Shown here one piece after another: positions 15,185 through 62,442 of a stretch of DNA of 64,000 nt. This DNA comes from Myxococcales bacterium (GTDB lineage Bacteria > Myxococcota_A > Bradymonadia > UBA7976 > UBA1532): positions 202,962 to 266,961 of the forward strand of contig PCCS01000001.1 of assembly GCA_002731825.1 (NCBI GenBank). Direction: 5' to 3'. Below the pieces are notes generated by a model. The model did not search any database. It saw only the letters and a list, made by a program, of their open reading frames with translations, and was not told the origin of the DNA. Made by a program: the position numbers and the translations under genes. Each line of letters begins with the position of its first letter. Position 1 is the stretch's first letter.

Positions 15185-15244
15185 TCGACCTATTCTGGAG
15201 CAGTTTGGTATGTTGGATTTAATGACCTCATAGGGTTGCGTCCG

Positions 15245-16396: not shown

Positions 16397-16403
16397 AATC
16401 TGT

Positions 16404-20242: not shown

Positions 20243-20243
20243 A

Positions 20244-21482: not shown

Positions 21483-21534
21483 GGTTGCCCCTTTTAGCCT
21501 TGGCGGCGCATCTTGCGCCTTAACGGCCGTATCG

Positions 21535-49563: not shown

Positions 49564-50481
49564 TCATCCATAGAGCAGTTGAGCGCATTGATTTGCGAAT
49601 GCCCAAAAGAAATCGTCTCCGAAAAAAAGTGCTTCCAGTGCGGCCAGCGAGAGGAAGGGACCGTAGGGTATAACCGTTCTAGATGGATGGCCTTGATCTG
49701 CGTATTTCTCGTCTTCACCGAAATAAGCATCCAATTGCTCCGTCGTTGTTGTCAGGGTGTCTTCTGCGCCCGTTATCTTGCTATACAAACGGACCAAGAA
49801 GACCGCTAGGAGTGCCTGGACGGAACTGGCAAAAATCACAAATGCAAGTGGCTTCCAGCCTAAGAAAGCCCCGATTAACGCCATCAGCTTAGCATCGCCA
49901 AGACCCAGCGCTTCGCGCTTGAAAATCAACCAGCCAAGGCCAAAAATAGCCAGCATGAATCCTGCGCCAACGGCAGCACCAATAAGCGCGGTCTGACCAC
50001 TGTACATGGGGAGTAGGTAGGCGCCGCCAATGCCGATGATGGTACCGGGGAGACTCAGTTCATCTGGGATGAAGAAATGCTCCAGATCGATGAAAATAAT
50101 CACCACAAGGGCATAAATAAAGGCCTGCAACCACATCCAATGAGCAAAATTGATCCAGATCGTGTCCGGCTCGAAGGTCTTGAAAATCGCTCGGAACAGA
50201 ACAAGGCTCATGATGCCACAGGCGCATTCGATGAGCGCGTAGCGCGGACTAAATGTCGCACCGCAGGCCCGGCATCGGCCACGCAAGATCAGATAACTCA
50301 AGCAGGGAATGTTATCGTACCAGCGGATAGGCACTTCACATGTGCTGCATCTAGAGCCTGGATTGACTAAAGATAAACCCTCTGGAAGGCGATAGATCAC
50401 GACGTTTAGAAAACTACCCCACGCCGTCCCCCAGAAAAACGCGATCAGGAATAAGAACGTGATGGCAGGGGAGTCGATCAT
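49564..50481 (-). CDS. pilD: prepilin peptidase / N-methyltransferase (A24 family)
   Basis: Zn-finger-like CSTCEVPIRWYDNIPCLSYLILRGRCRACG, catalytic Asp regions (FIDLEHFFIPDE, GLGDAKLMALIGAFLGW). Confidence 0.85.
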   Translation of the reverse strand: MIDSPAITFLFLIAFFWGTAWGSFLNVVIYRLPEGLSLVNPGSRCSTCEVPIRWYDNIPCLSYLILRGRCRACGATFSPRYALIECACGIMSLVLFRAIFKTFEPDTIWINFAHWMWLQAFIYALVVIIFIDLEHFFIPDELSLPGTIIGIGGAYLLPMYSGQTALIGAAVGAGFMLAIFGLGWLIFKREALGLGDAKLMALIGAFLGWKPLAFVIFASSVQALLAVFLVRLYSKITGAEDTLTTTTEQLDAYFGEDEKYADQGHPSRTVIPYGPFLSLAALEALFFGDDFFWAFANQCAQLLYG

Positions 50482-52952
50482 TATCGAACCTGTATTGAAC
50501 CGAGTCGAGCGCGATTTTGTTTATCGCTTTTACCAGACTTAATTTTCATCCGGGTGCTGGATCGGTATAGACCGGCATAGAAGGTAAAGCGCGCCGGCGT
50601 AATGGTTCGCTTGATATTGATCTTATGGATGTCTCGGACCAGGTCGCCTTTCTTCCAATTTCGGGTCGGGAAAAGGCCCGCCACGGGGTCATGATCGCCG
50701 TGTATACGCTGACCGGGTGCATCGATATGGACGAAGACTTTCCAGGTAGACTGTGTTTTGGCTGTCGACTTCCAAAACATATGTAATTCAGCAGGGGAGC
50801 CGCTCTTTGGCTGACTCGGCTCAATTTTCCAAGCGACTAATTCGATCTTGTCCTCGAAGTTAATATTCACTTTAGTCACGCCATCGGGCAGTTCATCGAT
50901 CAAGGCGTTGGTAATCGGGTTTTTGTCGACGACACCCTCGTCGATTTTGTTGGAGACAAGGAAATACCGCGAACCTCGGTCATCGAGAACAGGGAGAGTG
51001 CGGCCAGTGGCCCGTCTAAACTCGACGTTGACAGAGGCGAGATCTTTTCTCGGGATTAACGCGAAAAAACGCTCGGTCCCCTTCGCCAATTTAGCAAAAT
51101 CGGTCGACGTCTTCAGCTTGGGTAAGTCTCTGGAATAAAATGAATTCGTCTGATTAGAGAGTCTATAGGTGTAGAGTTTCTCATCTCCACTGGCCACTTT
51201 CTTATAGACGTTGAGAACCTCTTTTTGCGAGAAATTCGTACTGAGTTCACTGGCGATGGGTACATTAAAGAAAAAGAGCCAGGACATGAGCACAGTCATT
51301 AGAATGAGCGTGGACATCGGGGCGCCAGTCAGGTGCGTGATACGGCCGGAAAGGGCTGAACGACCATCGATTGTGTCTCGAACCCAGCGCGATGTTTTCG
51401 AGAGGAGGCCTGAGGTTCTGCCCTTCAGCATTTTGTTACGGATGTAGCAAACCAACCAGACACTGATGTAGGTGATCAGACCGAGTATCAATGCGATGAT
51501 CAAACGTCTGAACCAGAACTGTAGATTACCCCAGCCATCGCCCCGTACCAGCGGGTCCAATGTGGTTCGGCGTTGCAGTAAAAGAAGAGGAACCAGGGCG
51601 GCCATGGCGAAAATAGCCAAATCAAAGTAGGGGCGTCGACGAACTGGATAAGCGAAGTATTGAACAAAGCCAGAGAGCCAATGGTGGAGTCGAGCTTGGT
51701 AGAGCAAGATATACGCAATGAGAGCGAAATTTAAGAATCGGGCGATTTTCCAATAGGGCAGATAAGCAGGAAATGAGTCGATAGATGTCCCGACGATCGT
51801 ATCGGCGAATAAGCGCGTTTCATGTTTCAGATTACTGTCTAAGAGCGCCAGAATCAGCACCGCGATGATGGCCAGGACTGGATTTGCATCCTGTTTAGGC
51901 ATTCGACCAAGGTAGATTGCAATGGCAAATGCGGCTCCAGGGGCAGCGAGAAAAATACCGAAATGGCTGTAGCCTGCGCCCAAAGCCGGGGCAATAAACC
52001 CAGCCAAGATCCAAACGAATAGAACCGCTCCCAGGCCTGAGTCCTCATTGGATGTATCTTTGCTCCAAAGCAGCGTCAGTAACGCCAGGGGCAGCAGCGC
52101 TCCGAAAGGAAAGAGGCCAAAACCAATTTGGTGGACGAATGCATTAAAGGAAGGGCGGGTTGTGCCTGTTGTCGAATGGATGTTGTCAGCCCAGAGAAAC
52201 AATGACTCCAAAGCGGCATCTCCAGGCATGTATAGGGAGGCTCGCCACCAGCCAAGGCCAACGATGAGCAAAGCGACGACAGCCCAGCTCCAGCGCATCA
52301 CAGTCGAACGCGAATCTCTGCCAATCCTGTAGCTAAACAATGTGAAGAGAACGGCCATTGGAATGGCTAACGCCGGCACGCCTCCAGACAAACCTGACAG
52401 TGCCGTGAGCACCCAAGCGCCTATCCAAATGGCCCGACCAGGTGAAAATCGACTATGTATAAAGGCCAGAGATGCGGTTGTCGTTGCCATCAATGTTGTC
52501 GACTGACCCAGGGCCAGCCAGTGATGAAAACAGAAGAGGGGCAGGCTTAGAAGAATGATCGCGCTCCACCAGGCGACAGCGCGGCCCGCGAATCGGCGAA
52601 CGGTGAGCATCAGAAAAAATAGGGTTGAGGCCCCAAAGATGAGTCCGGCCAATCGCAGTGATAGGGTTGATGTGCCGAGCAAAGAGACGCTTGCGGCTAC
52701 AGGCCAATAGCCAAATGGTAAGTCTGATACGGCATGTTCTTTAGCCCCACTGCCTTGACCAACATTCACTTCGAGCCAACGACCATTATCGACCATATGG
52801 TTCGCTACGGCGGAAATGTTAGCCTCCCAGGGCTCCCAGACGCCAAATTGGGTCGCGGCGGCGGTCAAGATCCCCAGAGCCAATAGACCACCGATCAGGG
52901 GATCTAAGCGGGCCGGCCACAAGCCGCCGGGTGTCTGCTGTTGGTCTGTCAT
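50481..52952 (-). CDS. GT-C fold glycosyltransferase (GT39/ArnT/PMT_2-like) with large C-terminal soluble domain
   Basis: 823 aa. More than 12 TMs in the first ~560 aa with an ArnT/PMT-like N-terminus (VWEPWEANISAVANHMVDNGRWLEV), then a ~250-aa soluble domain. Its TAA overlaps the pilD ATG by 1 nt (TAATG). Confidence 0.65.
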   Translation of the reverse strand: MTDQQQTPGGLWPARLDPLIGGLLALGILTAAATQFGVWEPWEANISAVANHMVDNGRWLEVNVGQGSGAKEHAVSDLPFGYWPVAASVSLLGTSTLSLRLAGLIFGASTLFFLMLTVRRFAGRAVAWWSAIILLSLPLFCFHHWLALGQSTTLMATTTASLAFIHSRFSPGRAIWIGAWVLTALSGLSGGVPALAIPMAVLFTLFSYRIGRDSRSTVMRWSWAVVALLIVGLGWWRASLYMPGDAALESLFLWADNIHSTTGTTRPSFNAFVHQIGFGLFPFGALLPLALLTLLWSKDTSNEDSGLGAVLFVWILAGFIAPALGAGYSHFGIFLAAPGAAFAIAIYLGRMPKQDANPVLAIIAVLILALLDSNLKHETRLFADTIVGTSIDSFPAYLPYWKIARFLNFALIAYILLYQARLHHWLSGFVQYFAYPVRRRPYFDLAIFAMAALVPLLLLQRRTTLDPLVRGDGWGNLQFWFRRLIIALILGLITYISVWLVCYIRNKMLKGRTSGLLSKTSRWVRDTIDGRSALSGRITHLTGAPMSTLILMTVLMSWLFFFNVPIASELSTNFSQKEVLNVYKKVASGDEKLYTYRLSNQTNSFYSRDLPKLKTSTDFAKLAKGTERFFALIPRKDLASVNVEFRRATGRTLPVLDDRGSRYFLVSNKIDEGVVDKNPITNALIDELPDGVTKVNINFEDKIELVAWKIEPSQPKSGSPAELHMFWKSTAKTQSTWKVFVHIDAPGQRIHGDHDPVAGLFPTRNWKKGDLVRDIHKINIKRTITPARFTFYAGLYRSSTRMKIKSGKSDKQNRARLGSIQVR

Positions 52953-53112: not shown

Positions 53113-54609
53113 CTAGAAGCCCAGCTCGATGCAGAGGCCTTCAGGGGTATTCGGGATCTGGAAGCAGCTGAATCCGGGATGGCAGCCGACGAGGACGTCG
53201 GGAGAGAAGAAATCATCGGGATTGACCTTCCGACACGAACACGCGGCGCTCATCGATAGTGGATTCAAGGTACATGTACCACCTGGTGCGCAGACGCCTT
53301 CGCCTCCAGCACCTGGATCGCAGGTTCCATCACGATAGAAGCACTGGCCTGTTTGTACGTTACAGTCCATGGTCTCAGCATCTGTACAATCTGCAGCGTT
53401 ATTACAACCGGGCTCACATCGCCCAGTCTGTACGCTACATTGGGACCCCATCTGGCATGTCAGTCCAGCACAGGGTGCACTCTCGCATTCAAATGTGTCC
53501 AAATTACAGGCCGAACGAGCTGGGCAATCCGTGTCATCGAGACATTCGACACAATTACCTTGAAGACAAATTGGTCGCCCACCACATGTCTCACATTGGG
53601 AATCATTCCCGCATTCGCACGGCTCACTGCCCGTACACGTGTTTGTCATCTGGTCACAAAATTCACCGATTGGGCAGGGCGTATCATTACTGCATTCGCC
53701 GCACATACCCGTCTCTGGAATGCAGGCAGGTGTTGGGTCTTGGCATCGGCCTCCGCAGCTATCACAGCGACCTCCATTGGGCGTACACACGCCGTCTGTA
53801 CAGGTATAGTCGCCTGCACACCCACCCCCGTTGGCGCAGGTCTGTAAGCAGAAATTACCATTTTGGGCGGGTCGGCAGACATGGTTGTCTGCACAGCTTG
53901 AATCGCTGGTGCAAGATTCACAAGTCCCCCGGGGCATTACGCATTGCCCACTGCTCAAATCGCAGGCCAAACCGGCGTCGCAACCCCGGCCAGGGCAGAC
54001 GGTACAATCATAGTTAACGGGCACACATTGACCGAGTTGTTCGAGACATGTGAAGCCTTCAGGACAGTCTTCGAGGCCTTCGCCACATGCGGTTGTACAA
54101 AAGCTGCCCGTATTTCCAATCGGTGTACACTCAGCACCTTCGCCCAAGGCATTGCAGTCCCGGTCTGTGCTACAGGTCTGGCAGAGGCCTTGGTACGTGG
54201 ACCCGCCCGCATCGGTCTGCACTGAGCCGGCATCTCGCGAACTCATCCCCATATCAGTATTTATGATAAGTACATCGGCGACCATCGTGGGTTCGGGTAC
54301 ACAAGACCAAAGGTAAGGACCGTCGTCCACGCAGACTTGACCAGCGGGACACATGAGGATGCCATCCCCGCATTCTCGACGCGTACAACTATTGGTCGCC
54401 TGGAGGCAAACTCGACCGGATCCGGGACACTCGCCTAAGCTCTGGCAGGGTTCGGCCACGCATTCTTTCGACTCATCATCGCAAATGAGGCCTCGGCCGC
54501 AGTCAGCATCTACGTTACAGCTCTGGGGCTCATCGTCTGAACAACCCGTCGCAACAGACATTAGGGCGCCCAGTAGAATGATAGTCTTGACTGAAAATAA
54601 GCTACGCAT
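53113..54609 (-). CDS. cysteine-rich repeat lipoprotein
   Basis: Lipobox LMSVATGC. About 71 Cys in 498 aa, with repeated C-x2-C-x2-D-x-[DST]-C...C...C modules (CQTCSTDRDC, CESCTSDSSC, CGECSNDTPC, CVECLDDTDC). Confidence 0.8.
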   Translation of the reverse strand: MRSLFSVKTIILLGALMSVATGCSDDEPQSCNVDADCGRGLICDDESKECVAEPCQSLGECPGSGRVCLQATNSCTRRECGDGILMCPAGQVCVDDGPYLWSCVPEPTMVADVLIINTDMGMSSRDAGSVQTDAGGSTYQGLCQTCSTDRDCNALGEGAECTPIGNTGSFCTTACGEGLEDCPEGFTCLEQLGQCVPVNYDCTVCPGRGCDAGLACDLSSGQCVMPRGTCESCTSDSSCADNHVCRPAQNGNFCLQTCANGGGCAGDYTCTDGVCTPNGGRCDSCGGRCQDPTPACIPETGMCGECSNDTPCPIGEFCDQMTNTCTGSEPCECGNDSQCETCGGRPICLQGNCVECLDDTDCPARSACNLDTFECESAPCAGLTCQMGSQCSVQTGRCEPGCNNAADCTDAETMDCNVQTGQCFYRDGTCDPGAGGEGVCAPGGTCTLNPLSMSAACSCRKVNPDDFFSPDVLVGCHPGFSCFQIPNTPEGLCIELGF

Positions 54610-54744
54610 GGTTCTATTTTCCTCAGGCTACGCTGCTCAATCGCCGCTAAATAGGCTTGTATCGAGCACGACCATGGTTTCTGAAGGTGCCGGAATATAT
54701 GTGACTCGGGGGGGCTGAGGCAAGCCTTCTGTTCAAACTTATAT

Positions 54745-54762
54745 TCATTCAAAGGTCATTCA
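54745..54762. repeat. direct repeat TCATTCA-aagg-TCATTCA (11-bp phasing) in divergent promoter region
   Basis: TCATTCA occurs at 54745-54751 and 54756-54762, about 92 bp upstream of the 54854 start. Function unknown. Confidence 0.5.
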
Positions 54763-54853
54763 GTTCGATTTTTGTTGAAATTCCGCCCGTTTTAGTCGAA
54801 CCAAAGGCGTGTTATGTCTGTATCGTTAATCAGAATTACGGTTTGAGTGGTCG

Positions 54854-55444
54854 ATGAGTAATCTCAAGATTCCAGATGTTTTTTCGACGCATTCGGCGGC
54901 GAAGTATTGCCGTGTCACCCCAATGACCATCATTCGGTGGATCGAAGAGGGCAGAATCAAAGCGTATAAAACACCCGGTGGACATCGTCGGATCATGCGC
55001 GGTGATTTGGATGAGTTTTGTCGGGCGACCGGGATCCCTATCGAATGGGACACGCGCATTAACCAAGGGCCAAAGCGTGTTCTCGTCATCGATGACGATG
55101 AGCAGTCTGTCAATTCAATTTTGGATGCGCTCTTGGATGCTGAAGGTGACGAATCAATGGTCACCTTCAAAATTGCTCACACAGACAATGCCTTCGATGC
55201 CGGTATGATGATGCGAGATTTAAAGCCGGAGATCATTTTTCTCGACCTAGACCTGACCGGCACCGATCCTGTTCGTCTCATCGCATCCATTCGCCACGAC
55301 GCCGATTTACGCGATTGTCGGGTGGTTGGCATCGCGTCCGAGCAAACACCGGCAAACATGCCGGTCGATCGTGTGCTGCACCGACCCCTCGCCCGAGGTG
55401 CCGTTCGACAGGCGACGGGTCCCATGCCCATCGTTAAAATTTAG
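54854..55444 (+). CDS. excisionase/MerR-type HTH fused to a C-terminal receiver-like domain
   Basis: N-terminal HSAAKYCRVTPMTIIRWIEEGRIKAYKTPGGHRRIMRGDLDEF. C-terminal REC text (RVLVIDDDE, IIFLDLDLTG, VVGIAS, LHRPL). Confidence 0.75.
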   Translation: MSNLKIPDVFSTHSAAKYCRVTPMTIIRWIEEGRIKAYKTPGGHRRIMRGDLDEFCRATGIPIEWDTRINQGPKRVLVIDDDEQSVNSILDALLDAEGDESMVTFKIAHTDNAFDAGMMMRDLKPEIIFLDLDLTGTDPVRLIASIRHDADLRDCRVVGIASEQTPANMPVDRVLHRPLARGAVRQATGPMPIVKI

Positions 55445-55614
55445 AGCAACGCGTCCCATCGAATCGCCAGTCTCATCTTTTAGGCAAATTGACAACTATA
55501 TCTCCGTAAAGCCCCAGGGGAATGGGATTAATTTGCCGTGGACGGTTTAATAATCATGTGGTTTAGTGTACCCAGAGGTATTCAAAGGCAGCATAGGTTC
55601 TTCGGAGGTCCTTT

Positions 55615-56517
55615 ATGAATCGCTCAATTGGTGTACGCAGTCTCATTTCGGCGGGTATTAACAAGTTAAAGGCACCGACAGATGAGATCCCGATTACAGG
55701 AAGCCGGCGTGCTTTGGTCATGGCCATCGCAGCGCAGAAGGGCGGAGTGGGTAAAACAACCACCACAGTCAACCTGGCATGCGCATGGGCAAAGCAGTCT
55801 AAGTATCGCATTCTCGTCATCGACATTGACCCTCAAGGGCACGTGTCGTCCTCGCTCCGGGAAAACATCAAGCCAGCCTCGTCGACGTTGACGGATATTC
55901 TCTTGGCCGAGAGACCACGGGATATTTTGGACGCTGTCTTTCAAACCAATTTACCCAATTTGAGTTTAACAGCCGCTGATAAGGGGCTCGCCGAAACTGA
56001 TGCCCAGATGGCGAGCCGAGTTGGTCGTGAATACATTCTTAAGAGTGCCATCGCCAACGCAAGGAGCCATTTCGATATTATTCTCATCGATTGTCCACCC
56101 AATTTGGGCAACCTGACACTCAATGCGCTCGTGGCAGCTGATCATGTCCTGGTGCCCTGTGATATGAGCATTCTCGCCTTCGAAGGTGTTGCGGACCTAC
56201 TGGGCACTGTTCGAACTGTCAATTTGCGGCTCGGCCAGAATCTCGACGTTGCGGGCATTATTCGAACCCGCGTCGATGGGCGGACCCGGCAAATTAATGA
56301 TGCCATTGGTGGGGCACTTCGAGATAATTACGGCGACCTTCTTTTGGACACCATTATCCCGATTAATTCGGCCCTAGCAAAAGCCCAGGCGGCGGGTCTG
56401 AGCATATTTGAATTTCAGGCTCGTTCCAGGGGGGCAGAAGCCTATCTTGATCTGTCTAATGAGCTTGAGGGCCGTTTGTCACTCGGTGCAGGTCAGGACC
56501 GTGTTTCGACCTATTGA
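55615..56517 (+). CDS. ParA/MinD-family ATPase (orphan, no ParB nearby)
   Basis: Deviant Walker A AAQKGGVGKTTTTVNLA, ILVIDIDPQG, IILIDCPPNLG. GGAGG RBS. Confidence 0.85.
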   Translation: MNRSIGVRSLISAGINKLKAPTDEIPITGSRRALVMAIAAQKGGVGKTTTTVNLACAWAKQSKYRILVIDIDPQGHVSSSLRENIKPASSTLTDILLAERPRDILDAVFQTNLPNLSLTAADKGLAETDAQMASRVGREYILKSAIANARSHFDIILIDCPPNLGNLTLNALVAADHVLVPCDMSILAFEGVADLLGTVRTVNLRLGQNLDVAGIIRTRVDGRTRQINDAIGGALRDNYGDLLLDTIIPINSALAKAQAAGLSIFEFQARSRGAEAYLDLSNELEGRLSLGAGQDRVSTY

Positions 56518-56641: not shown

Positions 56642-58654
56642 TTGAACCTCCGTTCATCATCATCAAAGAGCATCAAACGAGTCCCGAAAGCAGCGCCTAA
56701 GTCAGGACGCAAGCGCAGACAGCGCCAGCCGGTACCCGTAACCGCGGACTTATTACGGTCGACGCCGTTCTTTGCCAACTTGCCGAAAGACTATCTCGAT
56801 GCATTGGTTCCGCGGGCGGAGCATGTTGAGTTGGCCCGTGGCGACGACGCATTTAATGCCCGTCCAGTCGGTGGTCAAGATATGGCATTGTTCCTGGTCT
56901 TGTTCGGAGACCTAAGCGTTCACAGAACCCAAAATAAGGGCCCAGAGGAGACAGTAAATTACCTCACCGTCGGTGATTTCTTCGTCGAAAGACTTATCGT
57001 CGATGACGATACAAAATCTATACGGTTAACCGCCATGTGTCCGGTGCGGCTTTTGAAGGTCAGTTACGCTGACTTCAATGTTTTGCTGCGGGCTCACGAT
57101 GACCTTCGCGGCGCTTTTTCCGACCGCATCCGAGATGTGGTCGATCGCCAAAAATCCAGATTTGATGATGCTTTCCAAAAAGAGATCGCTCGTTTCTTAG
57201 TCCAAGAACGACTCACTTTTGCCGGGCGAGTGAAACTCAAGCGCATGGACTTGTGCATCGAATGTGATGGCTGCTATTCGGCATGCAAAGATCGTCATGG
57301 GACTGATCGTCTGGGTCCAAGTGAGGTGAAATATGGACTCACTGAGGTTCCCCAGAACTGCCACAACTGTGTGGTTCCTGAATGTATGGACAAATGTAAG
57401 TTTGGACACATCGGGCGACATGCTGTCACCGGTGAAATTGTCATAGACGATAATTGCATTGGCTGCACAATGTGCAGCAAGGGATGTAGCTTTGGGTCCA
57501 TTCGGATGCACCCGATCGCTGAGCTGGATATGGAAAAGTATTTTCCAAATCGGTCGCCCGATGCCAAAGGTAAAGCCATTGCTCAGAAATGTGATAACTG
57601 CACTGGCTACGAAGACAAGGCATGCATTTCGGCGTGTCCTACAGGGGCTCTATTTCAGCTGGATGGCGCTGAGTTATTTGATAATTGGCGACAATTTTCC
57701 CCGCAATCCGTGCCCGATGGTGACGCCATCGAGAGTCCCAATGAGTTTCCTCATGGCTGGCGACAATTCTGGGTGGCGCTGACGGTTTTCGTCACTGTTT
57801 TTCTGTCTTGGGAATGCTTCGGCCGTTTGTACTGGCCCAAAGTTACTTTCGCAGAACTCTTTTTCCAGCTCGGCTGGTCTGAATCTGGGGTTGACCCAGT
57901 TGTGCCCTTTCGTGCGGGTGACTTTTTCAGTCATGCCCTTGGTTACATTGGCGGCGGTCTGATGATCGGGACACAAGTGTATCGATTGAGGGGTCGATTC
58001 AGTACAACACCTGTCTTGATGGAGGCTCATATCTGGATGGGTGTGATCGGGTTTATCATGGCGTTTTTTCACACCGCTTTCGTCTTCAGTGATCCCATTG
58101 CCGTGGCCACGTTTTTGACCATGTTTTTGGCCGTACTCACGGGGACCATCGGACGCTATGTTGTCTATATCGTGCCTCGGAACAAACATGGTCATGAACT
58201 TCTCCTAGACGAAGTCAATGACCGTATTGGTGATGTGACTAGGCAAATCGAGGGCGTTTTTTCCGACCCAAGTGTCGGTCATACGGCCATCGTCAGATTG
58301 AAAGATATCATGGGTCAGGAGAAAAGCGAGAGAGCGCTGGTGTCCACAGAGTCTCGTGGGTGGCGGCCGTTCATTGCGCTTTTAGTCGATTTAATTCGGC
58401 GTGATGCACTCACCAAAAAACGCGTCTCAGACCTTGCGAGCGAACTGAGTCATGGCCTTGAAGACGATAATCAGAGCGCCCAGGTCGAGACTCTGATGAC
58501 CGAGAAAAGCCGCTTGGAACGGGCCATTATGCAGCATGCATTTTTGTCCAAGGTCTTAAAAAGATATCGAATTGTCCATGTCACGAGCAGTAACATCATG
58601 TTTGGAGCGCTTGTTTTACATATTGTTTTCGCGTTGATGTATCAGGTGAATTGA
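56642..58654 (+). CDS. fusion: cNMP-binding-like domain + four-cluster (16-Cys) ferredoxin + 5-TM domain with two His-x13-His helices (di-haem b type)
   Basis: TTG is the only possible start (in-frame TGA at 56633). There is no signal peptide. cNMP text is LLRSTPFFANLPKDYLDAL...GDFFVE...IRLTAM. Cys groups are C205/208/211/215, C240/243/248/252, C272/275/278/282 and C317/320/328/332. TM helices carry H463/H477 and H646/H660. Confidence 0.7.
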   Translation: MNLRSSSSKSIKRVPKAAPKSGRKRRQRQPVPVTADLLRSTPFFANLPKDYLDALVPRAEHVELARGDDAFNARPVGGQDMALFLVLFGDLSVHRTQNKGPEETVNYLTVGDFFVERLIVDDDTKSIRLTAMCPVRLLKVSYADFNVLLRAHDDLRGAFSDRIRDVVDRQKSRFDDAFQKEIARFLVQERLTFAGRVKLKRMDLCIECDGCYSACKDRHGTDRLGPSEVKYGLTEVPQNCHNCVVPECMDKCKFGHIGRHAVTGEIVIDDNCIGCTMCSKGCSFGSIRMHPIAELDMEKYFPNRSPDAKGKAIAQKCDNCTGYEDKACISACPTGALFQLDGAELFDNWRQFSPQSVPDGDAIESPNEFPHGWRQFWVALTVFVTVFLSWECFGRLYWPKVTFAELFFQLGWSESGVDPVVPFRAGDFFSHALGYIGGGLMIGTQVYRLRGRFSTTPVLMEAHIWMGVIGFIMAFFHTAFVFSDPIAVATFLTMFLAVLTGTIGRYVVYIVPRNKHGHELLLDEVNDRIGDVTRQIEGVFSDPSVGHTAIVRLKDIMGQEKSERALVSTESRGWRPFIALLVDLIRRDALTKKRVSDLASELSHGLEDDNQSAQVETLMTEKSRLERAIMQHAFLSKVLKRYRIVHVTSSNIMFGALVLHIVFALMYQVN

Positions 58655-58804
58655 GGCTAAACTGACGCTGGGACGGATGTTTTTCGGCTCTGTCAAATCA
58701 GAGTCAAACGGGGACTGTTTGAGTCAATTAGCGTCCGATAATGACCCTAATTGAAAAAGTAGCTACGATGTCCGGTAAAGTTATCACAGGATACGCACGA
58801 TTAT

Positions 58805-61123
58805 ATGGGGCGCCCCTCGGCACAGACTAGGTCAGTCATTCGTCGGTTTATTCTGCCAACCATTACCGTTTGGGCACTCTTTACTCTGTTTTGCAATTCA
58901 CAGGTTTTTGCTGTCGGCCCCCTATCGACGCCTCATGCGCGGTACGACAATAACAACGATTGCACGAAGTGCCATGACATCTTTGGTGGTATGCCCAATC
59001 GAAACTGCCTCAATTGCCATAAGAGAATTGGCCAAAGGATCAGTGCTCGAAAAGGCTATCATGGGCGTAACGCAGCCGGTGCCAAATGTCATGACTGCCA
59101 TCGCGAACATCGTGGGCGTGGCTACGGGATTACCCAACTCAACCGGCGAACGTTTGATCATAAAACCACGGGTTGGTCGCTGACGGGTGGCCATACCCGT
59201 GTTCCATGCCGGGAATGCCACAGTGCAAAGAGGCCTGGAACGAATCGAGACAGTTACCTAGGTGCGCCGACCAGCTGTAATGGCTGCCACGGTAGCTATC
59301 ATGGACAGGGCCAAAAAGCTGAGTTGAATCGGTGCCAGGATTGTCACAACACCCAAAATTGGGCCTCTCTTAACGAAAAGTTAAAGTTTAACCACAACAC
59401 CCAAACCAATTTTCCACTGACAGGTCTTCATCGAGACGCGTCATGTGATAAGTGTCATCTCGGCAAGCGTAATTTCGGACCAATTGAGGTCTCCGGCTGT
59501 GTATCCTGCCATAAAAATCCCCATCCGATCGGCGTATTTGGATCACCCCGCAAGTGCGAGGAATGTCATATGACCAGCGGATTTAAGAAAACAAATGTCT
59601 TTGACCATTCAACGGCGGGCTGGCCCCTCCGTGGTAAGCACGCGGTCAATGCATGTACGGACTGTCATTCCTGGGAGAAATGGCGGCCGCCAACCAACGA
59701 TTGTCGAGGGTGTCATGTCGATGTCCATAAGGGGCAATTTGGGCGACAGCGATGCGATAGTTGTCACAAACAGACAGGCTTCACGGGACGGCACTTGAAG
59801 TTTAATCACAATACGATGAGCCGCTTTCCTCTGAAGGGCCGTCATACGCGTGTCGATTGTGCGAGCTGCCACCCTGGTGGTCATTACAAACCCTTGCCCA
59901 TGGAATGCGCCGATTGCCACCAAGATGACAATCCACACGGGGATAAGTTTGGTGATACGCCATGCAGCAATTGTCACTCACCGGTCGATTGGATGAAGAC
60001 GCGCTTTGACCACAGTGTCACCGGATTTGCTCTCGAAGAACGTCATGCCGAACAGCCATGTTATCGTTGCCATCCCAATGGGACAGAGACCGAAGACGAC
60101 ACGGAAAGGCGCTGTTCATTTTGTCATACAGACGTTCATCAAGGCCAATTCGAAGCCCCGCTGGACCAGCTCAATCGGGCCCTTGAACCGAAACAAGCAT
60201 CGGACGGCTGTGACAAATGTCATGCGGGTTTCCGGTCCTGGAAGATCCCGTTTTTCGATCACACCATAAGCCAGTTTTCACTGACCGGTCAGCACCAGAC
60301 GGTCCCCTGTACAGGCTGTCATACTCAGGGTCATTTCAAACCCATTGATGCGGCGTGTGCCAATTGTCATTACAACTTTCATGAGGGTCAGTTTAGTCAG
60401 CCATGTGACCAGTGTCATACCACCAAGGCCTGGTCGCCATTGGAGGAATTTGACCACAATACGAGGACTGAATATCGACTGGATGGCCGTCATGAAGAGG
60501 TTGATTGCGGCAAGTGTCATACGAACAATATTTATACAGACACGCCGAAAGAGTGCGCGGAGTGTCACGTCGATGTCCACAAGGGCAAGTTGGGCCCGGG
60601 CTGTGATCGCTGTCATGGCGTCGAAGACTGGTCAATCAACACCATGCAAGACCATGATTTTGGTGCTTTTCGGTTGGGAGGAGTCCATGACCTATTGGCC
60701 TGTGAGGAGTGTCATGGTCCAGACCGCAAGGAGACGCAAGCCGGGCGAGGTCCAGAATGTGTAAATTGCCATCGCGATCCCCATTTTGGGAGTTTTGGCC
60801 CTCAATGTTTCGAATGCCATAATCAGCAAGCATTCTTGCCCAGTACCTTTCTACATGCGGAAACGGGCTTTAGACTCTCCGGGGCGCACCGCTTTGTTGA
60901 ATGTCGTGATTGCCATCCAGGCCGTGTGTTCGGCGGACTCCCCAATGATTGCTTCTTTTGCCATACACAAGATTTCAATGCCACGGCCGGCAGCAAGCTC
61001 TGCGACCATACGGCCTGTATTCCGGGTGGGCTGGATTCCTGTCACAACTGTCATCGATCGACCAGTTTTGTCCCAGCGAGACCCGGTTCAGGGTGTGGGG
61101 TCTGTGAGGTCAATGGCCGATGA
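58805..61123 (+). CDS. periplasmic multihaem cytochrome c, 30 CXXCH motifs (c7/c3-type tri-haem units)
   Basis: Signal peptide (ITVWALFTLFCNSQVFA|VGP). I counted 30 CXXCH motifs in 772 aa, arranged 3 per unit. Confidence 0.9.
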   Translation: MGRPSAQTRSVIRRFILPTITVWALFTLFCNSQVFAVGPLSTPHARYDNNNDCTKCHDIFGGMPNRNCLNCHKRIGQRISARKGYHGRNAAGAKCHDCHREHRGRGYGITQLNRRTFDHKTTGWSLTGGHTRVPCRECHSAKRPGTNRDSYLGAPTSCNGCHGSYHGQGQKAELNRCQDCHNTQNWASLNEKLKFNHNTQTNFPLTGLHRDASCDKCHLGKRNFGPIEVSGCVSCHKNPHPIGVFGSPRKCEECHMTSGFKKTNVFDHSTAGWPLRGKHAVNACTDCHSWEKWRPPTNDCRGCHVDVHKGQFGRQRCDSCHKQTGFTGRHLKFNHNTMSRFPLKGRHTRVDCASCHPGGHYKPLPMECADCHQDDNPHGDKFGDTPCSNCHSPVDWMKTRFDHSVTGFALEERHAEQPCYRCHPNGTETEDDTERRCSFCHTDVHQGQFEAPLDQLNRALEPKQASDGCDKCHAGFRSWKIPFFDHTISQFSLTGQHQTVPCTGCHTQGHFKPIDAACANCHYNFHEGQFSQPCDQCHTTKAWSPLEEFDHNTRTEYRLDGRHEEVDCGKCHTNNIYTDTPKECAECHVDVHKGKLGPGCDRCHGVEDWSINTMQDHDFGAFRLGGVHDLLACEECHGPDRKETQAGRGPECVNCHRDPHFGSFGPQCFECHNQQAFLPSTFLHAETGFRLSGAHRFVECRDCHPGRVFGGLPNDCFFCHTQDFNATAGSKLCDHTACIPGGLDSCHNCHRSTSFVPARPGSGCGVCEVNGR
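59153..61054 (+). repeat. intragenic tandem array of nine diverged tri-haem modules (65-83 aa each)
   Basis: Most modules open with F-[DN]-H (module 8 has QDH, module 9 FLH), followed by [FW]-x-L-x-G-x-H-x4-C-x2-C-H (residues 117, 195, 266, 333, 401, 484, 549, 615, 682), and each contains exactly three CXXCH. Confidence 0.8.
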
Positions 61124-62442
61124 AATCGATGCAGCAGTGGATTCTCGTGTTCTCATTATTCCTGCTTTCTATCCCCTCCGCTGGGGGCGAAGAGTTGAAA
61201 ATCGATGGCCGCGTTGCGTCACGTAGTCTCTACTCAACAGCTGACGGACCCGTCTCCAAAGATGTGCTATTCCAGTTTGTAGATTTGGATTTAGATGTTG
61301 AGAATATGGGCCCCTTTGACACGGCTCTCACACTAGATGCCACGCTTCTTTGGGATATCAGCGAAGTCAAAGAACGACGATTTGGCGAGACTCAGTCATT
61401 TCAGCAGCTCAGACAACTCTATCTTCAACAGGCTTTCACTCAAAAGTGGACCGTGTCGGCCGGTCGGCGCATTATTTTTCAGGCTGGAAATGCTTGGGTT
61501 GACGGCCTTGATGTTCAGCTCAAATTGAATTCGACGATGATGGTTGGTGCCTACGGTGGGCTGAGGCCCGACCCGAACAGCTATCAGCCAACAACGACGT
61601 ACCAGACGGTGGGCAGTTACTCGAGTTACAAACGAGACGGACTGAACGTCGAACTGGGCTACAACCTGATTTTGAGGGACGGATTGGATCGTCAGTTTCT
61701 GTATGGGCGAACCCATTATCGATTGGCCCCAGGCCTTTACGTAAACGTCTATTCGGTCGTCGATACACTCGATGAAATTGAGCCTGTAACACTATTGTCG
61801 ACCCTTGATTATACCCCCACAAAGGCGGTTAATCTGTCCATTAACTATACGCGCTACAGTATTGAAGCGTACCGCAATCAGGCCATCTATCGAAATGTCG
61901 TTCGCCTCAACCAAGCGCTACTGCTCGGTGATGAAATCATCGACCTTGTCTACAATCGTGTCCGTCTGTCTGGTTCCTATCGATTTTGGCGGCGCTATTA
62001 TCACTATCAGACCATCGAGTACAAGAGGCGGAGCCAAGACCGGAGGCAATCTTGGGCCTACACCATAGGACTTCGTAATAGCGACCTATTCTCGACGGGG
62101 ACACGGTTCGACCTGCGGACAACCATTCGAAATAATTTTCAGAGTGATTCCTGGTTGATCGCCGGTGATTTGGAGAAAGACATCTTTTTGGAACTGACCC
62201 TGAATGGCCATGTCACGGTTTTCGATGGGCGTACTATTGACCGGTTTACGGAGCGGGGGCGCACATTCGATGAAGCGCAACGTATTTATCTGATGGGCGG
62301 CTCTTTATTCTGGCGGCCCTCCCGGGCACATCATCTGAGTTTGACCTACGACGGTGTCTACGAAACCGACCTGATCGACCAGCGGAACGACGCAGCCTTG
62401 TTTATTCACACAGGATTATTTCGTTACGCCTATCATTTCTGA
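61120..62442 (+). CDS. outer-membrane beta-barrel protein translationally coupled to the cytochrome
   Basis: ATGA overlap with the cytochrome stop. Signal peptide (ILVFSLFLLSIPSAGG|EE), alternating strand pattern rich in Y/R/D/G/N, and a C-terminal OMP-type ending FRYAYHF. Confidence 0.75.
   Translation: MKSMQQWILVFSLFLLSIPSAGGEELKIDGRVASRSLYSTADGPVSKDVLFQFVDLDLDVENMGPFDTALTLDATLLWDISEVKERRFGETQSFQQLRQLYLQQAFTQKWTVSAGRRIIFQAGNAWVDGLDVQLKLNSTMMVGAYGGLRPDPNSYQPTTTYQTVGSYSSYKRDGLNVELGYNLILRDGLDRQFLYGRTHYRLAPGLYVNVYSVVDTLDEIEPVTLLSTLDYTPTKAVNLSINYTRYSIEAYRNQAIYRNVVRLNQALLLGDEIIDLVYNRVRLSGSYRFWRRYYHYQTIEYKRRSQDRRQSWAYTIGLRNSDLFSTGTRFDLRTTIRNNFQSDSWLIAGDLEKDIFLELTLNGHVTVFDGRTIDRFTERGRTFDEAQRIYLMGGSLFWRPSRAHHLSLTYDGVYETDLIDQRNDAALFIHTGLFRYAYHF

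What the first reader, a model, noticed from the sequence alone, without database searches (positions are those of the whole stretch)
56642..62442. Candidate previously undescribed three-gene trans-envelope electron conduit with a cytoplasmic Fe-S entry and cNMP gating
Three co-directional genes supply one redox module per envelope layer. The cytoplasm and inner membrane are covered by the cNMP/4x[4Fe-4S]/di-haem-b fusion (56642..58654), the periplasm by the 30-haem c7-polymer cytochrome (58805..61123), and the outer membrane by the ATGA-coupled beta-barrel (61120..62442). Established: known extracellular electron-transfer systems (MtrCAB, PioAB/MtoAB, Geobacter Pcc) combine an OM porin with multihaem cytochromes. 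However, they enter via quinol dehydrogenases (CymA, ImcH, CbcL). Inference: here electrons would be taken from, or delivered to, a cytoplasmic Fe-S domain directly, bypassing or paralleling the quinone pool. Activity could be switched by a cyclic nucleotide. Upstream candidate control and positioning genes are the HTH-REC regulator and the orphan ParA. The direction of electron flow (export to minerals, prey or an electrode versus import) and the physiological partner are unknown. The 150-bp gap 58655-58804 leaves co-transcription of gene 1 with genes 2-3 unproven.
Basis: inference. Interest (0 to 1): 0.85.

Follow-up and report, generated by a model that had tools for sequence, protein, structure and literature searches.

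The report
Candidate envelope-spanning electron conduit operon
An unannotated, strongly conserved gene set in uncultured Bradymonadia (and probably Bdellovibrionota) encodes an inner-membrane iron-sulfur/haem-b protein, a 30-haem periplasmic 'wire' and an outer-membrane barrel, which together look like a new variant of the machinery bacteria use to move electrons between the cytoplasm and the cell surface.

Summary
Gene 3 models confidently as a 22-strand beta-barrel.

Comparative genomics supports a functional unit. g1->g2->g3 is kept in 18 species-level Bradymonadia/Myxococcota MAG loci; two more show g1->g2 up to the contig end. It recurs at 29%/20% identity in an unrelated neighbourhood (L052, probably Bdellovibrionota). 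It recurs again around a paralog of g1 that carries an FAD/NAD(P) domain (L029).

g2-g3 is the invariant, translationally coupled pair. g1 can sit elsewhere in the genome.

- The 'cNMP' domain is a CRP-like fold whose phosphate-binding residues are not conserved, so cyclic-nucleotide gating is unsupported.
- ParA and the HTH regulator are lineage-specific neighbours.
- Bypass of the quinone pool is plausible but unproven.

No Pfam or NCBIfam family, solved structure or paper describes the barrel or the g1 architecture. Verdict: a new variant of the porin-cytochrome kind with a novel inner-membrane entry module. Its physiological role is unknown.

The parts
56642..58654 (+). g1: inner-membrane fusion protein (670 aa) made of a CRP-like domain, a 4x[4Fe-4S] ferredoxin domain and a 5-TM di-haem-b (DUF4405-like) domain
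   Evidence: ORF; Pfam/NCBIfam/PDB hits; invariant 16 Cys + 4 His in 62 homologues; AF2 model pLDDT 85.9
56744..57166 (+). g1 residues 35-175: CRP/PKG-like beta-roll ('cNMP-binding' fold) with a degenerate phosphate-binding cassette
   Evidence: Pfam PF00027 31.5 bits; Foldseek top hits CRP/PKG CNB domains; cassette columns not conserved
57227..57676 (+). g1 residues 196-345: HycB/HydN-like domain with four Cys4 [4Fe-4S] motifs, predicted cytoplasmic
   Evidence: Motifs; 7qv7_A HycB3 E 2.5e-11, 7z0s_B E 4.6e-9; HydN/AegA NCBIfam partial hits; all 16 Cys invariant; no Tat/Sec signal, N-terminus disordered
57752..58651 (+). g1 residues 371-670: five TM helices plus a cytoplasmic helical bundle (515-605). 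H463/H477 lie on TM3 and H646/H660 on TM5, giving two bis-His haem-b sites, one near each membrane face
   Evidence: AF2 helices; invariant His; DUF4405 weak hits in 53/62 family members, Ferric_reduct in 9/62; DUF4405 binds haem b experimentally (PMC11334425); 493 relatives including stand-alone ~290-aa proteins
58655..58804 (+). g1-g2 spacer (150 bp). The 3' ~70 nt are conserved in the two closest lineages. There is no terminator-like site and no significant RNA fold
58805..61123 (+). g2: Sec-exported 30-haem cytochrome c made of 10 tandem c7-like trihaem modules, apparently all bis-His
   Evidence: 30 CXXCH; PF14522 x8; module alignment with 3 conserved distal His per module; the 30-haem count is conserved in orthologues
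61120..61123 (+). ATGA stop/start overlap coupling g2 and g3
   Evidence: an NTGA overlap is present in 33 of 37 loci including the distant L052
61120..62442 (+). g3: outer-membrane 22-strand beta-barrel of an unannotated family (signal peptide, C-terminal Phe)
   Evidence: AF2 pLDDT 86.5, 22 strands; Foldseek finds only generic large barrels; no Pfam/NCBIfam/PDB hit; family restricted and unnamed
53113..54609 (-). Cys-rich lipoprotein (498 aa, 71 Cys): lineage-specific partner of g1. In most relatives it lies directly upstream of g1 on the same strand; here it is inverted together with the next two genes
54854..55444 (+). HTH_17/excisionase-type DNA-binding protein with a weak receiver-like domain. 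A conserved neighbour only within Bradymonadia
   Evidence: Pfam/NCBIfam; synteny; absent in L052
55615..56517 (+). ParA/MinD-type ATPase. A conserved neighbour only within Bradymonadia
   Evidence: Pfam AAA_31 E 8e-47; synteny; absent in L052

Best explanation
g1, g2 and g3 encode one functional electron-transfer chain across the whole Gram-negative envelope.

**g1** sits in the inner membrane, with its N-terminal CRP-like domain and its HycB-like chain of four [4Fe-4S] clusters in the cytoplasm. Five TM helices hold two bis-His haems b: H463+H646 near the cytoplasmic face and H477+H660 near the periplasmic face. Electrons from a low-potential cytoplasmic donor pass along the Fe-S chain and the two b haems to the periplasmic face. 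The donor is unknown for g1; paralogs carry their own FAD/NAD(P)H domain.

**g2** is a Sec-exported string of 10 c7-like trihaem modules. It would accept those electrons and is long enough to bridge the periplasm; scaling from the 12-haem wire GSU1996 gives roughly 25-30 nm.

**g3** is translationally coupled to g2 and is a 22-strand outer-membrane barrel. It would sheath or anchor the distal end of g2, as in the two-component porin-cytochrome systems PioAB and MtoAB.

Outward flow is the most likely direction, because Fe-S to haem b to bis-His haem c is downhill and is assisted by the membrane potential.

**Shown:** domain content, invariant ligands, folds, localisation signals, co-conservation and coupling.
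**Inferred:** cofactor loading, physical contacts, direction of flow, donor, acceptor and physiological role.

The CRP-like domain probably serves dimerisation or sensing of an unknown ligand rather than cAMP/cGMP binding. In Bradymonadia a ~75-Cys lipoprotein is an additional partner of g1 with unknown function.
For: 1. Cofactor sites: all 16 cluster Cys and 4 His are invariant over 62 sequences down to 27% identity. The H-x13-H pairs lie on TM3 and TM5 of a confident model. The domain is related to DUF4405, which binds haem b experimentally.
2. The Fe-S module matches the electron-transfer subunits HycB and HydN.
3. g2 has 30 CXXCH in 10 regular modules with 3 distal His each.
4. g3 is a 22-strand barrel with a signal peptide.
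5. Linkage: g1->g2->g3 in 18 genome loci, plus 2 truncated after g2 and 3 metagenome loci. g2 lies directly upstream of g3 in 17/17 informative loci. The g3 ORF overlaps the g2 stop (NTGA) in 33/37 loci. The g1-g2 gap is only -1 to 28 nt in L009, L017 and L052.
6. Independent recurrence, case 1: L052 has a g1 relative at 29% identity, a 27-haem c7 polymer and a g3 homologue (hhalign 99.0%, E 4e-18), with an ATGA overlap, in an unrelated ClpB/ABC-transporter context.
7. Independent recurrence, case 2: in L029, P0086 (the same N-terminus and membrane domain plus an inserted FAD/NAD(P) domain) lies beside a 33-haem g2 relative, a protein with 60 or more haem motifs and a g3 homologue (hhalign 98.2%).
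8. P0091, another FAD-type relative, is also next to c7-type cytochromes.
9. P0316 and P0300 show stand-alone membrane-domain genes adjacent to c7 cytochrome genes.
Against: - There are no experimental data of any kind, and every carrier is an uncultured MAG.
- No surface-exposed cytochrome is encoded, and the barrel shows no specific similarity to MtrB/PioB.
- I could not model whether a c7 module fits a 22-strand lumen.
- g1 can be separated from g2-g3 (L019/L027 in one genome; L020, L021, L026; L039, L041, L045), so direct g1-g2 contact is not obligatory at the gene-order level.
- One FAD-type relative (P0089) has no cytochrome neighbours.
- Much of the Bradymonadia synteny extends to unrelated flanking genes (pppA, PMT, frr, pyrH), so it partly reflects general conservation of gene order.
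- g1 has no donor-binding domain of its own.
- DUF4405/MsrQ-type cytochromes may also exchange electrons with quinones, so a quinone-independent route is not established.
Confidence: 0.6

Rival explanations
1. The primary system is Cys-rich lipoprotein + g1. On this reading g1 exports reducing power to the periplasm for this ~75-Cys lipoprotein (disulfide reduction or isomerisation, or redox control of a bound metal), analogous in logic to DsbD or Fre-MsrQ-MsrP. g2-g3 would be a neighbouring but separate porin-cytochrome module.
For: The Cys-rich gene is adjacent to g1 in 25/26 genome loci, usually directly upstream on the same strand. It remains with g1 in the five loci that lack g2-g3. g2-g3 occur without g1 in L027/28, L039, L041 and L045.
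Against: The cross-phylum L052 unit and the FAD-type L029 cluster have g2-like and g3-like genes next to the g1 relative but no Cys-rich lipoprotein. In the window lineage the Cys-rich gene has been inverted away from g1, whereas g1-g2-g3 stayed together. Cys-rich repeat proteins are very abundant in these genomes. The two readings are not mutually exclusive.
Confidence: 0.15
2. g2 is a periplasmic electron store ('capacitor') or general periplasmic wire, as proposed for the Geobacter c7 polymers GSU1996 and GSU2210. g3 is then a porin or assembly factor that does not carry electrons across the outer membrane, so the system ends in the periplasm.
For: c7-polymer cytochromes are described as periplasmic 'nanowires of haems' with a proposed capacitor role (PMC10138318; PMC11492766). 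No extracellular cytochrome is encoded here. g3 has no specific similarity to MtrB/PioB.
Against: The overlap of the g2 stop with the g3 start is kept in 33/37 loci and across phyla, and g2 precedes g3 in 17/17 informative loci. That is the pattern of an obligate complex, not of a cytochrome next to an unrelated porin. A 22-strand barrel without a plug domain is in the size class of cytochrome-housing porins (inference).
Confidence: 0.15
3. Electron uptake rather than export. On this reading g2-g3 act like PioAB/MtoAB, oxidising extracellular Fe(II) or another donor, and g1 carries the electrons inward to cytoplasmic Fe-S acceptors or to the quinone pool.
For: The two-component cytochrome+barrel layout and gene order match pioAB/mtoAB (my own knowledge). 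Haem chains are reversible in principle.
Against: Delivery to HycB-type clusters (typically low potential) from bis-His c haems would be uphill and would work against the membrane potential. This is a thermodynamic inference; no potentials have been measured. The FAD/NAD(P) paralogs look like NAD(P)H-oxidising input modules.
Confidence: 0.08
4. The adjacency is mere conserved gene order in a slowly rearranging chromosomal region, and the three proteins work in unrelated processes.
For: Flanking housekeeping genes (pppA, PMT-like, frr, pyrH) are syntenic over the same loci. Promoter and terminator scans are uninformative.
Against: The triad recurs in completely different neighbourhoods at 20-30% identity (L052, L029). 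g2-g3 moved together as a unit in JAWKQS. The start/stop overlap is conserved.
Confidence: 0.03

Closest known systems
Two-component porin-cytochrome conduits PioAB / MtoAB (and MtrAB of MtrCAB)
   Same: A Sec-exported multihaem cytochrome gene is immediately followed by a large outer-membrane beta-barrel gene, tightly coupled. The presumed role is electron transfer across the outer membrane.
   Different: The barrel has 22 predicted strands (MtrB has 26; my own knowledge). It gives no PF11854/MtrB_PioB hit and no MtrB among the top 50 fold matches. The cytochrome is a 30-haem c7 polymer, not an MtrA-type decahaem. There is no MtrC-like surface cytochrome. The inner-membrane partner is not a CymA-type quinol dehydrogenase.
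Geobacter porin-cytochrome (Pcc: OmaB/OmbB/OmcB; ExtABCD etc.) fed by ImcH/CbcL/CbcBA
   Same: The overall inner membrane -> periplasm -> outer membrane logic, using c7-related haem modules.
   Different: Pcc systems have separate periplasmic and extracellular cytochromes and rely on small diffusible PpcA-type carriers and quinol oxidases. Here a single 30-haem protein could bridge the periplasm, and the inner-membrane protein has cytoplasmic Fe-S clusters and no c haem.
c7-polymer 'nanowire' cytochromes GSU1996 / GSU0592 (12 haems) and GSU2210 (27 haems)
   Same: Tandem c7-like trihaem modules on one polypeptide (PF14522 x8, 10 modules; PMC10138318).
   Different: There is no detectable sequence match to the solved GSU1996 chain. 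All three haems per module have a conserved His distal ligand, rather than one His-Met haem per domain. g2 is obligately paired with a barrel gene.
DUF4405 / MsrQ / PepSY-like / ferric-reductase-domain (NOX, FRE) transmembrane haem-b proteins
   Same: Four conserved His on two TM helices bind two stacked b haems that carry electrons across the membrane. The FAD/NAD(P)-bearing paralogs (P0086, P0241, P0253) recreate NOX logic: NAD(P)H -> flavin -> ... -> haem b -> outside.
   Different: g1 has five TM helices with a ~130-residue cytoplasmic helical insertion before the last one. Its cytoplasmic redox module is N-terminal and made of four [4Fe-4S] clusters instead of FAD/NADPH. The window protein itself does not reach any Pfam threshold for these families. 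The acceptor is presumably a multihaem cytochrome, not O2, Fe(III) or MsrP.
Tmc / Hmc / DsrMKJOP transmembrane redox complexes of sulfate reducers (my own knowledge)
   Same: They link a cytoplasmic Fe-S protein through a membrane cytochrome b to periplasmic multihaem cytochromes c. They are the nearest precedent for a 'cytoplasmic Fe-S entry'.
   Different: They are multi-subunit, with HdrD-like CCG Fe-S subunits and NarI/HdrE-type cytochrome b. They have no outer-membrane component and no CRP-like domain. No sequence relationship was detected here.
HycB / HydN / AegA-type 4x[4Fe-4S] electron-transfer ferredoxins
   Same: The same four-cluster motif arrangement and significant sequence similarity.
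   Different: Those are soluble subunits of hydrogenase or formate-dehydrogenase complexes. Here the module is fused between a CRP-like domain and a haem-b membrane domain, with no catalytic partner nearby.

Membership tests
Porin-cytochrome trans-outer-membrane conduit (functional class) | Sec-exported multihaem c-type cytochrome | tested here: met
   30 CXXCH, PF14522 E 3.5e-34, N-terminal signal-like sequence
Porin-cytochrome trans-outer-membrane conduit (functional class) | Adjacent, co-conserved gene for a large (about 20 or more strands) outer-membrane beta-barrel | tested here: met
   22-strand AF2 model, pLDDT 86.5; g2 directly upstream of g3 in 17/17 informative loci; NTGA overlap in 33/37
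Porin-cytochrome trans-outer-membrane conduit (functional class) | Cytochrome physically inserted in the barrel and electrons delivered to the cell exterior | not testable with these tools
   No complex modelling or experiment was available
MtrB/PioB barrel family (PF11854) | Sequence or fold membership | tested here: not met
   No Pfam/NCBIfam hit; no PDB sequence hit at E<=10; Foldseek top 50 are ushers and Occ or general porins, with no MtrB; the profile search found no annotated relatives
c7-type polymer cytochromes (GSU1996-like) | Tandem trihaem c7 modules on one chain | tested here: met
   8 PF14522 stretches; 10 aligned modules of 65-87 aa, each with 3 CXXCH
c7-type polymer cytochromes (GSU1996-like) | One His-Met haem per domain, as in GSU1996 | tested here: not met
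   Each module has three conserved distal His, and only 7 Met occur in the whole protein, none conserved across modules
DUF4405 / FRD-type di-haem-b transmembrane domain | Four conserved His on two TM helices positioned to ligate two b haems | tested here: met
   H463/H477 and H646/H660 are invariant in 62 sequences and lie on predicted TM3 and TM5. The same H-x13-H pairs occur in distant relatives
DUF4405 / FRD-type di-haem-b transmembrane domain | Significant match to the family profile (PF14358 / PF01794) | tested here: inconclusive
   53/62 family members hit PF14358 at E<=1 (best 1.1e-6) and 9/62 hit PF01794 weakly, but the window protein itself has no listed hit
DUF4405 / FRD-type di-haem-b transmembrane domain | Haem b actually bound | not testable with these tools
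   Shown only for an Oscillospiraceae DUF4405 (PMC11334425)
HycB/HydN 4x[4Fe-4S] ferredoxin | Four Cys4 cluster motifs with family-level sequence similarity | tested here: met
   Motifs at 205, 240, 272 and 317; 7qv7_A E 2.5e-11; 16 Cys invariant
Cyclic-nucleotide-binding (CNB/CRP) domain | Beta-roll fold | tested here: met
   PF00027 above cut-off; Foldseek probability 1.00 to CRP/PKG CNB domains
Cyclic-nucleotide-binding (CNB/CRP) domain | Conserved phosphate-binding cassette (G-E ... R-[ST]-A) | tested here: not met
   Aligned to the PKG cassette, the window protein has V115-E116 ... K125-S126-I127. Family columns are V/I/L; Q 47/62; Arg only 14/62; and a variable position
NOX / FRE flavocytochromes | FAD- and NAD(P)H-binding dehydrogenase domain on the same polypeptide | tested here: not met
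   Absent from g1. Present as an insertion in the paralogs P0086, P0241, P0253 and P0295
Quinol dehydrogenases of known EET systems (CymA/NapC, ImcH, CbcL) | Membrane-anchored c-type haems (NapC/NirT type), or a HydC/FdnI-type cytochrome b fused to c haems | tested here: not met
   No CXXCH in g1; only 2/62 weak Ni_hydr_CYTB hits

The most novel reading that the evidence does not exclude
A quinone-independent trans-envelope circuit. It would comprise a NOX-like but Fe-S-based inner-membrane exporter (a new architecture of the DUF4405 superfamily), wired through a single periplasm-spanning 30-haem protein to a new family of outer-membrane barrel. It is conserved as a core-genome trait in two lineages known for bacterial predation (Bradymonadia and Bdellovibrionota). 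It would serve to discharge cytoplasmic reducing power at the cell surface, for example for reductive iron acquisition, extracellular redox chemistry against prey, or redox balancing without respiration.
Probability: 0.3. Interest if true: 0.85.

Novelty: new variant of a known kind. Interest (0 to 1): 0.66.

Why it matters
All characterised extracellular electron-transfer routes of Gram-negative bacteria start at the quinone pool. A route that starts from cytoplasmic Fe-S clusters (or NAD(P)H in the paralogs) would be a different bioenergetic design: electrogenic and independent of respiration.

It would also extend porin-cytochrome biology to planktonic marine and lake Myxococcota/Bradymonadia and to Bdellovibrionota, groups not known for metal respiration.

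It further gives a context and a testable function to three unannotated families:
- the g3 barrel family;
- the widespread ~290-aa DUF4405-like membrane proteins;
- the cNMP-like/Fe-S/(FAD) fusion proteins.

Because the whole unit is only three genes, it is a compact candidate for heterologous reconstruction.

Tried and rejected
- **g1 fold search (PDB).** The hits were dominated by the CRP-like domain and said nothing about the membrane part.
- **g3 fold search.** Only generic barrels were returned.
- **Broadened barrel profile.** A profile including the L052 and L029 sequences (A3) found nothing outside the clade.
- **PDB sequence searches.** Those for g2 and g3 were empty, for g2 even at E<=10.
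- **Regulatory scans.** Promoter and terminator scans were at chance level, with nothing in the g1-g2 gap. Rfam gave nothing. The spacer RNA fold was not significant (z -0.86).
- **Apparent fusions P0316 and P0300.** These look like membrane-domain + c7-cytochrome fusions. I rejected them as true fusions because the last TM region is garbled and an internal signal peptide precedes the cytochrome part. They are most likely frameshift-merged neighbours, so I count them only as adjacency evidence.
- **Literature.** Searches for Bradymonadales/Bradymonadia plus cytochromes returned nothing specific. The 'porin-cytochrome' + Myxococcota search gave only general surveys.
- **Synteny statistics.** I treated the Bradymonadia synteny alone as weak evidence because unrelated flanking genes are equally syntenic. 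I relied on the rearranged and distant loci instead.
- **NTGA overlap.** Given a TGA stop, an in-frame NTG occurs by chance 75% of the time. The informative facts are that the g3 ORF is always open across the g2 stop, that the stop is TGA in 36/37 loci, and that in several loci (window, L001, L031, L048) -4 is the first available start.

Full report
**1. Observation**

- g1 at 56642-58654 (670 aa, TTG start);
- g2 at 58805-61123 (772 aa);
- g3 at 61120-62442 (440 aa).

g2 and g3 share an ATGA stop/start overlap, and a 150-bp spacer separates g1 from g2.

g1 carries a Pfam cNMP_binding hit (31.5 bits, cut-off 27.5). It has four Cys4 motifs at 205-215, 240-252, 272-282 and 317-332, and several hydrophobic helices after residue 370. 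Its Fe-S part resembles HycB/HydN electron-transfer subunits (7qv7_A, E 2.5e-11; NCBIfam HydN/AegA partial hits).

g2 has exactly 30 CXXCH motifs and eight Cytochrome_C7 stretches. g3 matches nothing in Pfam, NCBIfam or PDB sequences.

The surrounding window is ordinary chromosome: frr and pyrH downstream, and gyrA, EPS genes and a TonB receptor upstream. According to the identical database entry, it derives from a marine 'Myxococcales bacterium' MAG.

**2. Anatomy of g1**

A 62-sequence alignment (27-69% identity to the window protein) shows that all 16 cluster Cys and four His (H463, H477, H646, H660) are invariant. The AlphaFold2 model (pLDDT 85.9) shows:
- a disordered N-terminus;
- a CRP-like beta-roll, then the ferredoxin domain;
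- helices at 371-397, 428-449, 456-478 and 485-510;
- a helical bundle at 515-605;
- a long helix at 609-667.

With the Fe-S domain in the cytoplasm, topology follows. There is no Sec or Tat signal, and the 448-452 loop and the 505-515 segment are Arg/Lys-rich. H463 and H646 then fall near the cytoplasmic face and H477 and H660 near the periplasmic face. Each pair is spaced H-x13-H, the classical geometry for two stacked bis-His b haems. That last point is an inference from the sequence and the model.

53 of 62 family members give weak PF14358 (DUF4405) hits, and 9 give weak ferric-reductase TM hits. DUF4405 proteins have been purified and shown to bind haem b, with four central His, and are related to MsrQ, PepSY-like proteins and FezC (PMC11334425).

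An exhaustive HMMER search with the membrane domain alone found 493 relatives. Many are stand-alone ~270-340-aa proteins with the same His pattern and no Pfam or NCBIfam family. Others are fused to Fe-S domains, or to Fe-S plus Pyr_redox FAD/NAD(P) domains.

**3. The 'cNMP' domain**

The fold is real. Aligned to the cGMP-binding cassette of PKG (FGE...RTA), however, the window protein reads V115-E116...K125-S126-I127. Across the family those columns are V/I/L, Gln (47/62), Arg in only 14/62, and a variable residue. The defining phosphate-binding residues are therefore not conserved. I regard cyclic-nucleotide gating as unsupported. The domain more likely acts as a dimerisation or sensor module with an unknown ligand, as in many CRP/FNR-family proteins (my own knowledge).

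**4. g2 and g3**

g2 splits into 10 tandem modules of 65-87 aa. The consensus is L-x-G-x-H...CxxCH...CxxCH...H-x-G...CxxCH...F-x-H, which gives three haems and three conserved distal His per module. Only seven Met occur in the whole protein. This suggests an all-bis-His chain, unlike GSU1996, which has one His-Met haem per domain (PMC10138318).

GSU1996, GSU0592 and GSU2210 are the known c7 polymers. They are described as periplasmic 'nanowires of haems' with 3-5 Å haem edge distances. Scaling from the 12-haem GSU1996 (about 12 nm, my own knowledge), 30 haems could reach roughly 25-30 nm, about the width of a periplasm. This is an inference.

g3 models with pLDDT 86.5 as a 22-strand barrel, with an N-terminal signal helix, one disordered loop (251-273) and a C-terminal Phe. 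Foldseek finds only generic large barrels: FimD usher (TMq 0.49) and Occ porins. No MtrB appears among the top 50. Its family has 68 clusters, all 'hypothetical protein', all from Myxococcota/Bradymonadia. A broadened profile added nothing outside the clade.

**5. Co-conservation**

A scan of one genome per GTDB species with the g1 profile returned 26 loci, all MAGs labelled Bradymonadia, Myxococcota, Myxococcales or similar. tblastn gave the following:

| Arrangement | Loci |
|---|---|
| g1->g2->g3 | 18 |
| g1->g2, then contig end | 2 |
| Truncated within g1 | 1 |
| g1 without g2/g3 (L019-L022, L026) | 5 |

Starting instead from g3 in metagenome contigs, g2 lies directly upstream in all 17 loci that have upstream sequence. 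g1 is present in L036, L037 and L051 but absent upstream in L027/28, L039, L041 and L045.

In the JAWKQS genome, CysRich-g1 (L019) and g2-g3 (L027) sit on different contigs of one assembly (tetranucleotide r = 0.99). L021 and L045 come from the same metagenome with r = 0.97.

The g3 ORF overlaps the g2 TGA stop with an in-frame NTG in 33 of 37 loci, and in several of these it is the first possible start. The g1-g2 gap is -1 nt in L009, 15 nt in L017 and 28 nt in L052, unambiguously, and can be 25 nt or less in several more. The window's 150 bp is therefore at the long end.

Because pppA, the PMT-like gene, frr and pyrH are syntenic over the same loci, I do not treat this synteny alone as proof of function.

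**6. Independent recurrences (the key evidence)**

*L052.* This locus lies on a 2.9-Mb contig with unrelated neighbours (ClpB, ABC transporter, SSF transporter). It has:
- a g1 relative at 29% identity with the same four clusters and H-x13-H pairs;
- then a 27-haem c7 polymer;
- then, again with an ATGA overlap, a 478-aa protein that matches the g3 profile (hhalign 99.0%, E 4e-18).

Its g1 relative is 51% identical to P0230, whose 90% cluster contains a protein labelled Bdellovibrionota. The unit therefore probably spans two phyla; this is an inference.

*L029.* P0086 (969 aa, Myxococcota MAG) has the same CRP-like/Fe-S N-terminus and the same membrane domain. A ~330-residue Pyr_redox FAD/NAD(P) domain is inserted between clusters 3 and 4. 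Beside it lie:
- a TPR protein;
- a 33-haem g2 relative (32% identity);
- a divergent cytochrome of more than 2667 aa with 60 CXXCH;
- a g3 homologue (hhalign 98.2%, E 4.5e-14).

*Others.* Another FAD-type relative (P0091) also neighbours c7-type cytochromes. One (P0089) does not.

These recurrences argue strongly that the three families work together. They also suggest that the cytoplasmic side is the electron input: the paralogs have a built-in NAD(P)H/flavin module.

**7.

A lipoprotein of 500-580 aa with 69-80 Cys, 0-5 His and no haem motif is adjacent to g1 in 25/26 genome loci. It normally lies directly upstream on the same strand, and it stays with g1 when g2-g3 are elsewhere.

In the window it lies at 53113-54609 on the minus strand (498 aa, 71 Cys, lipobox ATGC; weak TIGR04201 Myxo_Cys_RPT hit). 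The block [CysRich, HTH-REC, ParA] is inverted in the window, L001 and L003 relative to all other loci. It is absent from L052 and L029.

It is therefore a Bradymonadia-specific partner of g1 with unknown role. HTH-REC and ParA are likewise confined to the Bradymonadia arrangement.

**8. Mechanism and direction**

The best-supported reading is a chain running: cytoplasmic donor -> four [4Fe-4S] -> two haems b -> 30 haems c -> barrel.

Outward flow is favoured. HycB-type clusters are typically low-potential, bis-His c haems are intermediate, and moving electrons outward is assisted by the membrane potential. This is a thermodynamic inference; nothing has been measured.

The donor for g1 is unknown. 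Quinone involvement cannot be excluded, because MsrQ-type cytochromes can interact with quinones (PMC12525009 title and abstract).

The rivals are quantified in the Rival explanations section:
- a g1/Cys-rich lipoprotein periplasmic reductase system;
- a periplasmic capacitor role for g2;
- inward electron uptake;
- meaningless synteny.

**9. Comparison and novelty**

In function it resembles the two-component porin-cytochrome systems (PioAB/MtoAB) combined with a NOX/MsrQ-like transmembrane haem-b step. The Tmc and Hmc complexes of sulfate reducers are the nearest precedent for a cytoplasmic Fe-S / cytochrome b / periplasmic multihaem link (my own knowledge).

In membership, it meets the tests for:
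- c7-polymer cytochromes;
- HycB-like ferredoxins;
- (by ligand pattern) DUF4405-type cytochromes.

It fails the tests for MtrB/PioB barrels, for canonical cNMP binding, for NOX (no FAD/NADPH domain) and for the known quinol dehydrogenases.

No paper in the searchable library describes it. A lake survey notes only that Myxococcota carry many uncharacterised multihaem clusters.

I classify it as a new variant of a known kind: an envelope-spanning cytochrome conduit with a novel inner-membrane entry module and a new barrel family.

**10. Scores**

Interest is 0.66. The case for a real, conserved, undescribed system is strong and cross-phylum, and it is compact enough to test. However, function, direction and partners are all inferred, every carrier is uncultured, and the most eye-catching claim (cyclic-nucleotide gating) does not hold.

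Noticed in passing
window 53113-56517 vs L004-L018, L024, L025: The block [Cys-rich lipoprotein, HTH-REC, ParA] is inverted in the window, L001 and L003 relative to all other Bradymonadia loci. In those, ParA and HTH-REC are on the opposite strand and the Cys-rich gene reads directly into g1.
   Followed up: partly
window 58735-58804: The 3' ~70 nt of the g1-g2 spacer are conserved between the window, L003 and the more distant L001 (blocks ATGATGACC..AAAAA.T.GCTACGAT and CAGGATA..CAC). This may be an internal promoter or translation signal for g2-g3. There is no significant RNA structure and no Rfam hit.
   Followed up: partly
window 60998-61111 (g2 residues 733-767): g2 has four non-haem Cys near its C-terminus (C733/C738 and a terminal C764-x-x-C767), just before the overlap with g3. 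Orthologues also have about 65 Cys in total, so these are probably conserved. They could form disulfides or a metal site at the end that may meet the barrel.
   Followed up: no
P0198, P0200, P0203, P0210, P0216 etc.: A widespread family of stand-alone ~270-340-aa membrane proteins shares g1's H-x13-H...H-x13-H membrane domain and has no Pfam or NCBIfam model. At least two (P0316, P0300) appear to lie next to c7-type cytochrome genes.
   Followed up: partly
P0092-P0110: Proteins of about 750-815 aa combine a cNMP-like domain, 4Fe-4S clusters and a thioredoxin-reductase-like Pyr_redox domain, and align only with the N-terminal part of g1. Those that carry a source name are from Gammaproteobacteria, Pseudomonadales and Stellaceae MAGs. 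They seem to be the soluble relatives of g1's N-terminal half and look uncharacterised.
   Followed up: no
L029 1-8002 (- strand): A giant multihaem cytochrome (more than 2667 aa, 60 CXXCH, truncated by the locus end) is divergently transcribed from the FAD-type g1 paralog P0086.
   Followed up: no
L041 1-5576 and L045 1-6570 (- strand); L019 14311-19887; L022 13673-19894: Giant Cys-rich proteins (1858-2190 aa, 80-189 Cys) flank the g2-g3 or g1 loci in several genomes. A DUF4215-like 1286-aa protein follows g3 in L027.
   Followed up: no
L002 5519-7649: A 2.1-kb insertion carrying at least one ORF (~424 aa) separates g1 from g2 in this one MAG.
   Followed up: no
window 50481-52952 (-) and 49564-50481 (-): An 823-aa multi-TM protein with a PMT_2 glycosyltransferase-like domain and a 305-aa multi-TM protein that I labelled a prepilin-peptidase-like gene (not checked against any family library) abut each other (the stop of one is the start coordinate of the other). 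Both are syntenic with the cluster across Bradymonadia.
   Followed up: no
window 13019-23985: A polysaccharide-export/EPS cluster: a Wzz/GNVR tyrosine-kinase-like protein, a sugar transferase, an asparagine synthase homologue and a Wzy_C/TPR protein. A TonB-dependent receptor lies at 24444-26324.
   Followed up: no
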